The notes below the pieces were generated by a model. The model searched no databases. It had not been told where the DNA came from and saw nothing but the letters and a program-made list of their open reading frames with translations. A DNA stretch of 63,661 nt, counting the filler, from Octopus bimaculoides (Eukaryota), in NCBI RefSeq assembly GCF_001194135.2. It is 5 parts of 5 records of this genome, joined end to end, with 100 filler letters (N's around TTAATTAATTAA, not from the genome) between each part and the next. Parts side by side here need not be neighbours in the genome. Positions count along the whole stretch, not along the records: positions 1 to 18,027 come from NC_069009.1; positions 18,128 to 28,875 come from NC_069008.1; positions 28,976 to 35,474 come from NC_068996.1; positions 35,575 to 58,807 come from NC_068992.1; positions 58,908 to 63,661 come from NC_069002.1. One strand, 5' to 3'. A program made the translations under genes and the position numbers. How positions within the stretch are numbered: the stretch's first letter is position 1; each line of letters starts with the position of its first letter. Shown in pieces: positions 5,439-61,225 of this stretch.

Positions 5439-5549
5439 TATATATATATATATTGATAGAAAGGACAACAAAAGAAAGAAAGAGACCTCGATATTATGTA
5501 AATAGAAAAATTTATCTGTAAAAATATGTGACACTTATTCGGTAGCCAC

Positions 5550-5610
5550 GATAAAACTCAGAGTTTCGGATGCCGGGGTGGGGGCCCATGCCAACATCTC
5601 TTCGGTTATC
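5550..5610 (-). ncRNA. Hammerhead ribozyme-like motif, type I minimal (core variant CCGAAGA)
   Basis: GATAA CCGAAGA GATG..CATC C GAAACTCTGAGTT TTATC: stem I GATAA/TTATC, stem III ACTC/GAGT, cleavage GUU. Deviations: U4>C and an extra C at the base of stem II. Confidence 0.5.
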
Positions 5611-6040
5611 TGGCCATTGAAAATTCCTGTGAAAAATGACCGTTAAACAAAGGGAAATTACTGTGTGGTTGACCGTCATTAAGACAAAATAGCTATAGAC
5701 CGCTAAGTAAGGGGAGGGGGTAAAAGTAAGGGAGTAGAGAAGTCTATAGTGTTTGTGTAAGCGCACCAATCCGTACATTCGTCTATATTTATATACTAAA
5801 CCAGTTTTTGGCGAGTATGTGAGTGAGCATGTGTGTTTCAAGCAAGGGTGGTTTAGTATATAAATATAGGCGAATGTATGGATTGGTGCGCTTACGCGAA
5901 CCTATAGACTTCTCTACTCCCTTACTTTTACCCCCTCCCCTTACTTAGCGGTCTATAGCTCTTTTGTTTTAATGACGGTCAACCACACAGTAATTTCCCT
6001 TTGTTTAACGGTCATTTTTCACAGGAATTTTCAATGCCTG

Positions 6041-6101
6041 GATAACTGAAGAGATGTTAGCGTGGGTTCCCACCCCAGCATCCGAAACTCGGAATTTTAT
6101 C
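6041..6101 (+). ncRNA. Hammerhead ribozyme-like motif, type I minimal (stem III damaged)
   Basis: GATAA CTGAAGA GATGTT..AGCATC C GAAACTCGGAATT TTATC. The CUGAAGA core is intact; one mismatch in stem III relative to the partner arm. Confidence 0.5.
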
Positions 6102-6138
6102 ATGGCTACTGNNNNNNNNNNATATGTATGTATGTATA

Positions 6139-6895
6139 TATCAGTCTGAGTAAAAAGTAAGCAACGTTTTGAAATATGAAATTCATCACAATGTGGAAAT
6201 TTTATTCATCAATGTAAATACATTTTTGCCAATGAGTTACAAGTTTGTTTATTCCAGTAACATAAAATTTGGAGTTGGAGCTGATAAACTCTTAGAATGC
6301 ACTTTCAGCATTGTTTGATTTTTGAACTCCTCCTCTTGCAGGAAACCATCAAGGTGCTTGAAAAAGTGGTAGTCAGTAGGTGAAAAGTCTGGGGAATAAG
6401 CTGGGTGGGGAAGAACTTCGTAGCCAAGTTCCCTCAACTTTTGGAGTGTCATTAGTGAAACATGTGGTCGAGCATTGTCATGAAGTATTATTGACCTTCT
6501 TCTGTTGACCAGTCTGAGATGGAGGGGTTACAGTTTTTCATTCATTTTGGCAATTTCATGGCAATATGTTTCTGCAGTAATGGTTTTTACAGGTTTTAAG
6601 AAGTTATAGTCAATGAGTCCAACAGTACACCACCAAACAGTCACCATAACCTTCCTTTTGAAAAGTTTGGGTTTAGGGAAAGAGTTTAGTGCTTCATTTT
6701 AGTCCAACCACTGTGAAGAACGTTTTTTATTATTATTGTACAGAATCCACTTTTCATCGCAAGTTACAGTACAGTTAAGAAAAGGATCAGTCTGGTTATG
6801 GAGAAGAAGCGACAAACAAATTTCATATCTGGGCATTTTTTGATTTTCATTCAAATCACGTGGTACCCCTTTGTTGAGCTCTCACTTGTATTTGT
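6139..6895 (-). mobile_element. Mariner transposase remnant (Hsmar1/cecropia-like, DD34D)
   Basis: Reads VTCDEKWILYNN, KVMVTVWW, LHDNARPH, LPHPAYSPDFSPTDYHFFKHL, with stops and frameshifts. Confidence 0.9.
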
Positions 6896-7129
6896 AGCCT
6901 TCCTCCTTCCTCCCTCTTTCCCCCTTAAATTTCTTTCCTTATTTTCTCTCTAGTTTCTCTCTGTCACCCTCTCTCTCTTCTCCTCTACCTACTGCTGGCA
7001 CATGACCCGTGGCCAGCTTTCTTTCTTTCTTTCCCTTTTTCCCTTTTTCCCACCAGCTGCCCAGCCATTCAGTCACAAAAAATTTCTCTGCTTTCTTATT
7101 TCCATATCTGTGCACACAAAAAGGTCATT

Positions 7130-7440
7130 GTTATTCACCTTCTCGATCTTGATACAGAAATGCAGCTGCAAATTCAAAAGGCAGCAAAAGCATTTGGTGG
7201 CTTGGAGTCAGGCGTTTGGTGCCAGCAACATATAAATAAGAATACAAAGCTGGCTCTTTACAAATCATTTGTCTTACAATCCCTGTTGTATTCCTGTGAA
7301 ACTTGGACTTGTAATGAAAGGCATTTTAAATTGTTAGAGCAATTCCATCAAAAATGCCTTCATCACATTTTAATAATTAAATAGAGTTCTTTTACTCTAA
7401 ACAGTGGAGTGGAGGAAAGCATTTGAAGAGGCCAGGACAA
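7130..7440 (+). mobile_element. RTE (BovB-like) LINE RT C-terminal fragment
   Basis: IQKAAKAFGGL...VW....I...TKLALYKSFVLQSLLYSCETWT...LEQFHQKCL..IL.IK. Confidence 0.8.
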
Positions 7441-58977: not shown

Positions 58978-59244
58978 AATTATATTAGAAAAAATAATAA
59001 AGTACTCAGATATCTAGATGGTTGTACATTTACAGATTTTTATTAATATGTCACATGTTTTTATAAATTAGCACTTGCACCTATTCTTGTAGATTCTCCA
59101 GATTGTCATAGTAGAATCTGGAGAATCTACAAAAATAGGTGCAAGTGCTAATTTATAAAATCATGTGACATATTAATAAAAATTTGTAAATGTACAACCA
59201 TCCAGATATCTGAGTACCTTATTTTTTTTTTCTAATATATAATT
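58978..59244. repeat. Long inverted repeat, about 127-bp arms, 10-nt loop (59105-59114)
   Basis: tatattagaaaaaa..gtactcagatatc...gattctccagatt / aatctggagaatc...gatatctgagtac..tttctaatata. Confidence 0.92.
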
Positions 59245-59324
59245 CCTGTACATCACCTCCAAACCTTCTAATATATATATATAAATATACATATATACAT
59301 ATACATATATATATATATATTTAT

Positions 59325-59720
59325 AGAAGGTGTATTCTAGAAGTTTTGAGACTTTTTCAGGAGACATTTATTGATTTTTAAATAAGTAGAAAACGCTAAT
59401 TTCTTTCAAAGTAGGATCCTCTGACTTCAATGAACTTGTTGTGGCACTCCAGCCATTTCATGAAGGCCCCATAAAAGTCCTCAAAAGGAAGGTATCAAGG
59501 ACCCTTGTCACAACTTCCTTCATCTATAAAACGACTGTCCCTGTGGTTCACCTTTAGCCTGGGGTACAACCAAAGGTCACAGAGAGCAAGGTCTAGACTG
59601 AATGGAGGGTGAAGGATGGTTTTGATGCCCATTTCATCAATTAGCTGGTTACCAAGTACCCTGGGAACAAGCTTTGCACAAACTTTGTGCTTGTTCAGAT
59701 CTTCATGTATAATTCGATGT
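59325..59720 (-). mobile_element. Mariner C-terminal remnant with TIR-like end
   Basis: MGIKTILHPPFSLDLALCDLWLYPRLK...FMKWLECHNKFIEVRGSYFE; end resembles gaaggtgtattctagaagttttgagac. Confidence 0.75.
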
Positions 59721-59769
59721 ACAATTTCTACTCAACTCCAAATTGTATGCTTATTACTGTTATAGACAC

Positions 59770-60910
59770 ACAATAAACACTGTAAACAAACAGGAAACAA
59801 CTTCTATCTCATTCCAGGGAGAAAAACTAGAGGTAGTCGATAGCTTCCGCTATCTGGGTGACCAAGTTAGTAGTGGGGGTGGGTGCGCTGAAAGTGTAGC
59901 TGCTAGAATAAGAATAGCCTGGGCAAAGTTTAGAGAGCTCTTACCCCTGCTGGCGACAAAGAGACTCTCACTCAGAGTAAAAGGCAGACTGTATGACGCA
60001 TGTGTACGAACAGCCATGCTACATGGCAGTGAAACATGGGCTGTGACTGCTGAGGATATGCGTAAGCTCGCAAGGAATGAAGCCAGTATGCTCCACTGGA
60101 TGTGTAATGTCAGTGTGCATGAGAAAAGCTGAACATAAGAAGCATCAGTTGTGGTGTNNNNNNNNNNNNNNNNNNNNNNNNNNNNNNNNNNNNNNNNNNN
60201 NNNNNNNNNNNNNNNNNNNNNNNNNNNNNNNNNNNNNNNNNNNNNNNNNNNNNNNNNNNNNNNNNNNNNNNNNNNNNNNNNNNNNNNNNNNNNNNNNNNN
60301 NNNNNNNNNNNNNNNNNNNNNNNNNNNNNNNNNNNNNNNNNNNNNNNNNNNNNNNNNNNNNNNNNNNNNNNNNNNNNNNNNNNNNNNNNNNNNNNNNNNN
60401 NNNNNNNNNNNNNNNNNNNNNNNNNNNNNNNNNNNNNNNNNNNNNNNNNNNNNNNNNNNNNNNNNNNNNNNNNNNNNNNNNNNNNNNNNNNNNNNNNNNN
60501 NNNNNNNNNNNNNNNNNNNNNNNNNNNNNNNNNNNNNNNNNNNNNNNNNNNNNNNNNNNNNNNNNNNNNNNNNNNNNNNNNNNNNNNNNNNNNNNNNNNN
60601 NNNNNNNNNNNNNNNNNNNNNNNNNNNNNNNNNNNNNNNNNNNNNNNNNNNNNNNNNNNNNNNNNNNNNNNNNNNNNNNNNNNNNNNNNNNNNNNNNNNN
60701 NNNNNNNNNNNNNNNNNNNNNNNNNNNNNNNNNNNNNNNNNNNNNNNNNNNNNNNNNNNNNNNNNNNNNNNNNNNNNNNNNNNNNNNNNNNNNNNNNNNN
60801 NNNNNNGTGTTGCCATCCGGTTTCACCAGTCCTCAGTCAAATCGTCCAACCCATGCTAGCATGGAAAGCGGACGTTAAACGATGATGATGATGATGATGA
60901 TGATGATGAT
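59770..60910 (+). mobile_element. RTE LINE 3' portion spanning a gap
   Basis: LEVVDSFRYLGDQVSSGGGC...RIRIAWAKFRELLPLL...KGRLYDACVRTAMLHGSETW; the 3' tail and (GAT)n follow the gap at 60808-60910. Confidence 0.88.
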
Positions 60911-60919
60911 TATATATAG

Positions 60920-61225
60920 CAATAAGAAAATGAAGGGGAATATGTGGTACTCATCAACTTGCAGACACTGTACTATGTTAATTAACCTATTTATTTTTCA
61001 ACCAAAAGGACAATAAAGACAATATACAAACATATGTGACACACTATGTCATATCAACAATTAAAAATTAAAAATTAATTTTTAATTGTTGATATGACAT
61101 AGTGTGTCACATATGTTTGTATATTGTCTTCATTGTCCTTTTGGTTGAAAAATAAATAGGTTAATTAGCATAGTACAGTGTCTACAACTTAAGAGTACTA
61201 CATATTCCCCTCCATTTTCTTATTG
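60920..61225. repeat. Long inverted repeat, about 150-bp arms, 7-nt loop (61070-61076)
   Basis: caataagaaaatg...caacaattaaaaatt / aatttttaattgttg...cattttcttattg. Confidence 0.92.

What the first reader, a model, noticed from the sequence alone, without database searches (positions are those of the whole stretch)
5542..61225. Recurrent architecture: unrelated fold-back palindromes carrying outward-facing hammerhead ribozymes
Seen: five sequence-unrelated long inverted repeats (5542-6110, 10554-10907, 28544-28835, 58978-59244, 60920-61225). Three hold a minimal type I hammerhead in each arm, always oriented outward. On either strand the ribozyme is therefore transcribed after its own full antisense copy. 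Two unrelated families share the palindromic stem III ACATATGT. Known: Penelope-like retroelements carry such minimal hammerheads, which can act as dimers, in their pseudo-LTRs and often leave inverted pLTRs; two Penelope ORF fragments are in this window. Inference: these are PLE- or retrozyme-derived non-autonomous units whose geometry auto-sequesters the ribozyme in long dsRNA. That dsRNA could feed ADAR editing (extensive in coleoids) or small-RNA pathways, and editing might re-expose the ribozyme. I am not aware of this arrangement being described as a family, but I cannot check.
Basis: partly seen in the sequence, partly recalled or inferred. Interest (0 to 1): 0.8.

Follow-up and report, generated by a model that had tools for sequence, protein, structure and literature searches.

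The report
Head-to-head Penelope remnants bury ribozymes
This octopus DNA holds five long mirror-image repeats; three carry outward-pointing, mostly decayed ribozyme motifs and are likely leftovers of Penelope-type jumping genes inserted head to head, a known pattern that would make long double-stranded RNA.

Summary
Octopus bimaculoides DNA. The five palindromes are real (arms 85-96% alike) and mutually unrelated. Three (P1-P3) carry type I hammerhead motifs in both arms, all pointing outward; only P3 keeps two intact cores. P4 and P5 have none. The geometry is the described head-to-head insertion of Penelope-like elements (PLEs), whose ribozyme sits near the 3' end. It is in print for rotifer and schistosome PLEs, and this scan noted it before on shark and fungal DNA. 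In 78 natural Neptune loci, inverted copies were head-to-head in 10 and tail-to-tail in 1. One locus holds an ORF-less palindrome with outward hammerheads, a tail and a 13-bp target duplication. Found here: a seventh hammerhead; P3 probably inserted into an older PLE's hammerhead; and a helix II of 56-59 nt in three families (10-25 nt in relatives), which Rfam misses. Burial of the ribozyme in the hairpin is predicted but looks like a by-product. Modelled A-to-I editing does not free it. No arm was tied to a PLE ORF; copy number, expression and editing are untested. Main value: a candidate source of octopus's unusually abundant long dsRNA.

The parts
5542..6110 (.). P1 palindrome, arms 5542-5803 / 5849-6109, 93% alike, in a CHSY-like intron; candidate 6-bp target duplication at 5524-5529 and 6122-6127 (right end lies in a 10-N gap)
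5555..5605 (-). P1 left hammerhead, core U4>C, helix II span 31 nt, extra C before GAAA
6046..6096 (+). P1 right hammerhead, core intact, helix III pair broken
10554..10907 (.). P2 palindrome, arms 85% alike, in a CHSY-like intron; no target duplication found
10587..10664 (-). P2 left hammerhead, core U4>A, helix II span 59 nt, helix III ACAUAUGU
10797..10874 (+). P2 right hammerhead remnant, core G8>A, helix III changed; seen only by alignment to the left arm
28544..28835 (.). P3 palindrome, arms 96% alike, 5-nt apex; probably inserted into an older 'family B' hammerhead with a decayed 6-7 bp duplication (28542-28548, 28830-28835)
28564..28638 (-). P3 left hammerhead, intact core, helix I 6 bp, helix II 10-bp base with 56-nt span, helix III ACAUAUGU
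28738..28815 (+). P3 right hammerhead, intact core, helix II span 59 nt
58978..59244 (.). P4 palindrome, 95% alike, no hammerhead; candidate 6-bp duplication at 58976-58981 and 59239-59244
60920..61225 (.). P5 palindrome, 95% alike, 3-nt apex, no hammerhead, no duplication found
24608..24696 (-). Seventh hammerhead ('family B'), intact core, helix I 7 bp, helix II span 57 nt with a decayed base; points away from the adjacent Neptune endonuclease fragment
   Evidence: E 0.03; z -4.2
28452..28548 (+). Older family B copy (84.5% to 24781-24688) running up to the hammerhead core, where P3 interrupts it
24774..25018 (+). Neptune-type GIY-YIG endonuclease C-terminal remnant
   Evidence: E 5e-9; iE 1.3e-8
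61545..62681 (-). Neptune-type reverse transcriptase thumb/linker remnant
19760..20480 (-). PLE N-terminal remnant with the DKG motif (weak profile score, 0 of 15 shuffles as high)
   Evidence: motif named in PMC8557442
906..15145 (-). Chondroitin sulfate synthase-like host gene (exon-bearing ORFs 14558-15145, 8352-8594, 906-2447) whose introns hold P1 and P2

Best explanation
P1-P3 are likely ORF-less insertion products of endonuclease-bearing Penelope-like retrotransposons: two short copies of the element's 3' end joined head to head, so the hammerhead motif near each 3' end points outward. Inferred mechanism: the element's protein nicks both strands of an AT-rich target a few bases apart; each nick primes a cDNA that starts just downstream of the hammerhead; both cDNAs stop after 140-260 nt and are joined at a short hairpin or microhomology; repair leaves a short target duplication. 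Any transcript through the insert is predicted to fold into a 130-260 bp hairpin that buries the ribozyme. This is probably a by-product: the cores decay, and the short helix III would need a second same-strand copy to cleave. P4 and P5 may have arisen the same way but carry no marker.
For: Shown: hammerhead type matches Neptune PLE hammerheads (model from 25 non-octopus motifs). In 78 Neptune loci, 73 of 78 hammerhead hits lie on the ORF strand (25 were training sequences). Inverted copies were scored head-to-head in 10 loci and tail-to-tail in 1, the latter only 66% alike. Natural copies often end about 25-45 nt past the cleavage site (read by eye); the window's arms end 13-33 nt past it. 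Locus L020 holds an ORF-less 266-bp palindrome with outward minimal hammerheads, an 18-nt tail on one side and a 13-bp duplication. P3's left flank matches family B up to its hammerhead core, and its right flank continues the match (3 of 2000 shuffles; 25 of 2000 without the duplicated part). Three PLE ORF remnants lie in the window. 4 of 6 arms carry disabling changes. Literature: an inverted 5'-truncated copy at the 5' end and a hammerhead near the 3' end (PMC8557442, passages); head-to-head most frequent (PMC3846280, passages and Discussion); the anole PLE protein cuts and extends both strands, prefers AT-rich DNA, starts inside the RNA and does not need ribozyme cleavage (PMC11167929, parts 1-2 of 4); PLEs tend to insert into or beside older PLE copies (PMC6765202, passages).
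Against: No arm of P1-P3 could be joined by sequence to a PLE ORF, and no arm has a second copy in the window. Target duplications are weak: 6-bp candidates in 3 of 5, one across an assembly gap, one AT-rich, one decayed, and none in P2 or P5. They are shorter than the 8-10 bp reported for rotifer PLEs. No tail was shown in the window. Helix II (56-59 nt) lies outside the 10-25 nt range of 35 Neptune motifs. Spacers of 3-45 nt and equal outer ends fit a fold-back copy or a fixed palindromic master as well as two independent truncations. Of the 10 head-to-head loci, L025 is a simple repeat and L066 is doubtful, and the label is positional.
Confidence: 0.75

Rival explanations
1. Each palindrome is a copy of a non-autonomous fold-back family that arose once from a PLE end and is now moved as a whole unit by PLE enzymes.
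For: Short spacers (3-45 nt) and symmetric ends; P3 looks like one discrete insert between duplicated target bases; pLTR ends can mobilise unrelated DNA in trans (PMC3846280).
Against: Five of five palindromes are unrelated, and none recurs in 57 kb. A 140-260 bp perfect hairpin would be a poor template for reverse transcription (inference). L020 shows the asymmetric tail expected of two separate priming events.
Confidence: 0.14
2. PLE origin, but the second arm is made by self-priming: a cDNA or antisense strand folds back at a small palindrome and is extended to copy itself, as proposed for rotifer Penelope. This differs from the best explanation only in the joining step.
For: Apex loops of 3-10 nt in P3-P5 and equal outer ends; both P1 arms share an extra C before GAAA; the model is in PMC3846280, Discussion.
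Against: It does not by itself explain a one-sided tail with a target duplication (L020). In vitro both strands are extended.
Confidence: 0.3
3. DNA-transposon MITEs or fold-back elements with long terminal repeats that happen to hold hammerhead-like sequence.
For: P4 and P5 have no hammerhead. Palindromic DNA repeats are known, such as frog Harbinger (PMC5625713).
Against: P1-P3 carry structured hammerheads beyond chance. Their ends share no terminal motif. A conventional MITE-like element in the window (11911-12164: 48-bp terminal repeats, about 160-bp interior) looks different.
Confidence: 0.06
4. Inverted duplications of non-LTR retrozyme monomers.
For: A type I hammerhead with a palindromic helix III is shared with retrozymes, which are themselves proposed to derive from PLE ends (bioRxiv 10.64898/2026.07.22.740005, part 1 of 5).
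Against: No tandem units around P1 or P2 (4000-16000) and no same-strand repeat of any arm in the window.
Confidence: 0.04

Closest known systems
Head-to-head inverted pLTRs of endonuclease-bearing PLEs (Adineta vaga Penelope, PMC3846280; general scheme in PMC8557442 Fig. 2 legend)
   Same: Two element 3' ends pointing outward, palindrome at the junction, arms of about 140-260 bp (pLTRs there are 181-218 bp), AT-rich targets.
   Different: Here no ORF or third pLTR is attached, no tail was shown, and candidate duplications are 6-7 bp rather than 8-10.
Dual min-HHRs on opposite strands about 100-700 bp apart in Schistosoma mansoni (PMC4209133)
   Same: Paired PLE-type hammerheads on opposite strands at this distance, ascribed to truncated PLEs.
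   Different: The passage does not state the direction of the pair. Octopus motifs keep a short helix III and have a helix II span of 31-59 nt, against about 25 nt or less in that paper's supplementary alignment (part 2 of 3).
Neptune-clade pLTR hammerheads (78 metagenome loci)
   Same: No bulge after A9, helix II opening G-C or G-U, helix III AC-palindrome-GU, sense to the ORF.
   Different: Helix II spans 10-25 nt in 35 distinct motifs, against 56-59 nt in P2, P3 and family B. The downstream GAGCACT motif is absent because the arms end earlier.
Palindromic Harbinger repeats of Xenopus tropicalis as ADAR substrates (PMC5625713)
   Same: A self-folding repeat of 200-300 bp that needs no second copy to form tight dsRNA.
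   Different: A DNA transposon with a palindromic consensus and shown editing; here the palindrome likely arises at insertion, and editing is untested.
Non-LTR retrozymes
   Same: Non-coding, type I hammerhead, PLE-related.
   Different: Retrozymes are same-strand tandem arrays that let the ribozyme dimerise; these are inverted pairs that cannot.

Membership tests
Endonuclease-bearing Penelope-like element (pLTR-derived insert) | Type I hammerhead in the terminal repeat, near the 3' end | tested here: met
   P1-P3; not met for P4 and P5
Endonuclease-bearing Penelope-like element (pLTR-derived insert) | Inverted copy arranged head to head | tested here: met
   6 of 6 arms outward; 10 head-to-head vs 1 tail-to-tail in 78 Neptune loci
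Endonuclease-bearing Penelope-like element (pLTR-derived insert) | Arm sequence continuous with, or matching the pLTR of, an RT-GIY-YIG ORF | tested here: inconclusive
   No link within the window; no octopus genome was available
Endonuclease-bearing Penelope-like element (pLTR-derived insert) | Target-site duplication | tested here: inconclusive
   6-7 bp candidates at P1, P3, P4; none at P2, P5
Endonuclease-bearing Penelope-like element (pLTR-derived insert) | Optional 30-40 bp tail on one end | tested here: inconclusive
   Needs other copies; none shown in the window; an 18-nt one-sided tail in L020
Type I hammerhead ribozyme | Conserved core with helices I-III | tested here: met
   Intact in both P3 arms and family B, and single arms fold to the hammerhead shape; altered in P1 and P2
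Type I hammerhead ribozyme | Self-cleavage | not testable with these tools
   Needs in vitro transcription; PLE motifs cleave poorly and as dimers (PMC4209133)
Non-LTR retrozyme | Tandem same-strand units, each with a hammerhead | tested here: not met
Non-LTR retrozyme | Circular RNA expression | not testable with these tools
   No read-level data obtained
MITE / fold-back DNA transposon | Shared terminal motif and superfamily-specific duplication, many near-identical copies | tested here: inconclusive
   No shared termini among the five; copy number untested; still open for P4 and P5

The most novel reading that the evidence does not exclude
Head-to-head PLE palindromes are the main unannotated source of the long, near-perfect dsRNA that makes Octopus bimaculoides one of the two most hyper-edited animals surveyed, doing for octopus what palindromic Harbinger repeats do for the frog. 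They carry an octopus lineage of hammerheads with a giant helix II that standard searches miss.
Probability: 0.2. Interest if true: 0.65.

Novelty: new member of a known kind. Interest (0 to 1): 0.32.

Why it matters
As an architecture it is ordinary for PLEs. Two points keep some value. First, octopus has an exceptionally high fraction of loci able to form long dsRNA (4.4e-3) and one of the two strongest hyper-editing signals among the species surveyed, and its repeats were left out of that survey's repeat analysis (PMC5625713). Five palindromes cover 1788 of 57289 called bases here (3.1%; one window, not a genome estimate), so PLE palindromes are a concrete, testable candidate. Second, the long helix II hides these hammerheads from Rfam, so octopus PLE remnants may be undercounted or mistaken for MITEs or microRNA hairpins. 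ORF-less young palindromes would also let one decide between twin priming and self-priming, an open step of PLE integration.

Tried and rejected
No whole genome is held. No reads were laid, so expression, editing, polymorphism and copy number are open. The run search listed 24 runs, no RNA holder on record; not used as evidence. Rfam: no hammerhead among the 150 of 207 rows shown for the window, among 31 rows at P3 or among 4 rows at family B. I first read the 97-nt block beside P3 as P3's own tail with an intron and ORF start, then as decayed endonuclease code. The profile tests gave no support, and the seventh hammerhead showed the block to be the stretch upstream of family B's core. An RT-like reading of 28130-28400 seen by eye was not confirmed. 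A similar spacing of two short motifs near the ends of P4 and P5 was not significant. Family B's minus-strand end does not match the 3' region of the adjacent endonuclease fragment (162 of 200 shuffles as high), so that junction is not a same-family palindrome. Viral contigs: 1 weak locus and 0 pattern matches. No solved structure matched the Neptune profile. Protein word searches with remnants found nothing. Bacterial promoter scan: uninformative. Paper searches; none named an ORF-less hammerhead palindrome family or octopus PLE hammerheads. Lunse et al. 2017 on PLE hammerhead variants was not held and file 1 of the PMC4209133 supplement was not searchable; either may already show long helix II variants.
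Full report
Setting. The exon at 906-2447 (-) is 100% identical to an Octopus bimaculoides hexosyltransferase. Pfam places further pieces of this chondroitin sulfate synthase-like gene at 8352-8594 and 14558-15145, so P1 (5542-6110) and P2 (10554-10907) lie in its introns and would be read on the minus strand. 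Everything below rests on the window, on related loci from other organisms, and on papers.

Observation. All five inverted repeats are real. Arms are 93, 85, 96, 95 and 95% alike, with spacers of 45, 19, 5, 10 and 3 nt. Each folds with 85-97% of bases paired at -169 to -460 kcal/mol (P3 z = -34). Diverged arms argue against a library fold-back artefact (inference). None of 50 arm pairs is related in either orientation. A hammerhead scan allowing one core mismatch finds 5 sites, all in P1-P3 and all outward, and none in 12 block shuffles. P2's right arm is a remnant seen only by alignment. Only P3 has two intact cores, and each P3 arm alone folds into the hammerhead shape. Both copies that lie on the host gene's strand (P1 left, P2 left) are mutated at U4; with two cases this is an anecdote. 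P4 and P5 have no hammerhead.

Kind of ribozyme. The remnant at 61545-62681 (-) retrieved Neptune-type PLE proteins (2998 hits at E up to 0.001, best 150 used). An alignment of 8 of them fetched 78 metagenome loci (best 80 of 237 confirmed stretches). A strict scan found hammerheads in 34 of 78 loci and none in shuffles. Their design is that of the window's motifs: no bulge after A9 and helix III AC-palindrome-GU. The shared ACATATGT therefore reflects a constrained motif rather than kinship, and the 8-mer occurs 10 times in the window. A covariance model of 25 such motifs ranks both P3 arms first (E about 1e-4) and finds a seventh hammerhead at 24696-24608 (-), E 0.03, whose fold has z = -4.2; the model's E-values are rough. 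One difference stands out. Helix II spans 56-59 nt in P2, P3 and this family B (31 in P1), against 10-25 nt in 35 distinct motifs of the loci. Rfam does not report them.

Geometry in relatives. 73 of 78 model hits lie on the ORF strand, just after the stop or about 90-160 nt before the ATG. Inverted repeats of 40 bp or more occur in 14 of 78 loci. By position, 10 loci are head-to-head (L025 is a simple repeat and L066 is doubtful), 1 is tail-to-tail at 66% identity, and 4 hold stand-alone palindromes, L020 counting in two groups. The stand-alone palindrome of L020 (3809-4074) carries a minimal U3-A8 hammerhead pointing outward in each arm, an 18-nt tail on one side and a 13-bp target duplication. 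It is the same architecture, from a locus of unknown host, with PLE hallmarks. Opposite-strand hammerheads that converge also occur (L054, L069), but those pairs are not inverted repeats of one family.

Insertion marks in the window. P3's left flank (28452-28548) is 84.5% identical to the stretch upstream of family B's hammerhead and stops at its core. The right flank continues that sequence weakly: 3 of 2000 shuffles, 25 of 2000 without the duplicated bases, 24 of 2664 random window places. P3 thus probably inserted as one piece into an older PLE end, with a decayed 6-7 bp duplication. P1 and P4 have exact 6-bp candidates, one across a gap and one AT-rich; P2 and P5 have none. No arm could be tied to an ORF.

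Literature (what I saw). [quoted passage not shown] PMC3846280, passages and Discussion: head-to-head is the most frequent arrangement, palindromes occur at the junction, self-priming is proposed, duplications are 8-10 bp, and antisense small RNAs are made. PMC4209133, parts 1-2 of 4 and supplement file 2 part 2: dual motifs 100-700 bp apart on opposite strands; single motifs are inactive and dimers weak. PMC11167929, parts 1-2 of 4: both strands are cut and extended, initiation is internal at two sites, and cleavage is not needed for insertion in vitro. PMC5625713, passages: octopus is rich in long dsRNA and hyper-editing, its repeats were not analysed, lizard Penelope is heavily edited, and frog Harbinger palindromes explain much of that species' signal. 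PMC6765202, PMC9989829 and PMC8969392, passages; the retrozyme preprint, part 1 of 5. Nine paper searches found no named family of ORF-less hammerhead palindromes, but one relevant paper was not held. Two earlier notes of this scan describe head-to-head PLE junctions on shark and fungal DNA; I did not check them.

Mechanism. Shown: palindromes, outward motifs, PLE-type design, head-to-head bias in relatives. Inferred: nicks on both strands each prime a short cDNA from just past the hammerhead, the two are joined at a small hairpin, and repair duplicates a few target bases. Self-priming is the main alternative for the joining step and cannot be excluded. Outward orientation follows from the ribozyme's place near the 3' end and needs no selection. 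In a transcript the antisense arm is made first and is predicted to capture the ribozyme. For P3 the best fold that keeps the hammerhead is 104 kcal/mol worse than the hairpin. With half of the dispensable adenosines edited the gap is 91 (inosine as G) or 52 (inosine unpaired); with 90% edited it is 79 or 28. The chance that all 5 core adenosines escape 50% editing is 3% (6 replicates per point). Editing is therefore unlikely to re-expose an active ribozyme. That the hairpins are ADAR substrates is plausible from established ADAR preference but untested.

Verdict. The arrangement is a known by-product, not a new switch. Interest 0.32. The most novel open reading is that such palindromes supply much of octopus's hyper-edited dsRNA and carry a long-helix-II hammerhead lineage (probability 0.2, interest 0.65 if true).

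Noticed in passing
window 24536-25018: Family B hammerhead end on the minus strand abuts a plus-strand Neptune endonuclease fragment at about 24781, head to head but not matching in sequence; perhaps a nested insertion.
   Followed up: partly
window 15177-15461: A sixth, older palindrome (75.5% self-match) just upstream of the CHSY-like first coding stretch; no hammerhead found by the scans.
   Followed up: partly
window 8691-8786: Short near-perfect palindrome with GA-rich arms beside a CHSY exon; matches microRNA hairpin models only below their thresholds.
   Followed up: no
window 11911-12164: Element with 48-bp terminal inverted repeats and about 160 bp interior that looks like a conventional Tc1/mariner-type MITE (superfamily recalled, not tested).
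   Followed up: no
window 28130-28400: By eye an RT-like reading (DDF, FLDL motifs) upstream of the family B copy that P3 interrupts; no search confirmed it.
   Followed up: partly
window 6005-6035: P1 arm has a pyrimidine tract ending in CAG about 20 nt before the hammerhead, reminiscent of the intron end reported at helix I of D. virilis Penelope; seen by eye only.
   Followed up: no
window 18072-18083, 28920-28931, 35519-35530, 58852-58863: The same 12-base TTAA repeat sits between N runs several times; probably a scaffolding filler that inflates inverted-repeat lists.
   Followed up: no
L009-L076, downstream of hammerheads: Neptune loci share a twice-repeated GCTC...GAGCACT motif between hammerhead and ATG, near where longer insertions end; possibly the initiation signal of this clade.
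   Followed up: no
L020:3779-4084: ORF-less palindrome with outward U3-A8 minimal hammerheads, one-sided tail and 13-bp duplication.
   Followed up: yes
window 63317-63480: Exon-like stretch resembling an SLC17-type transporter by eye (Pfam gave no hit); P4 and P5 might be intronic to it.
   Followed up: no
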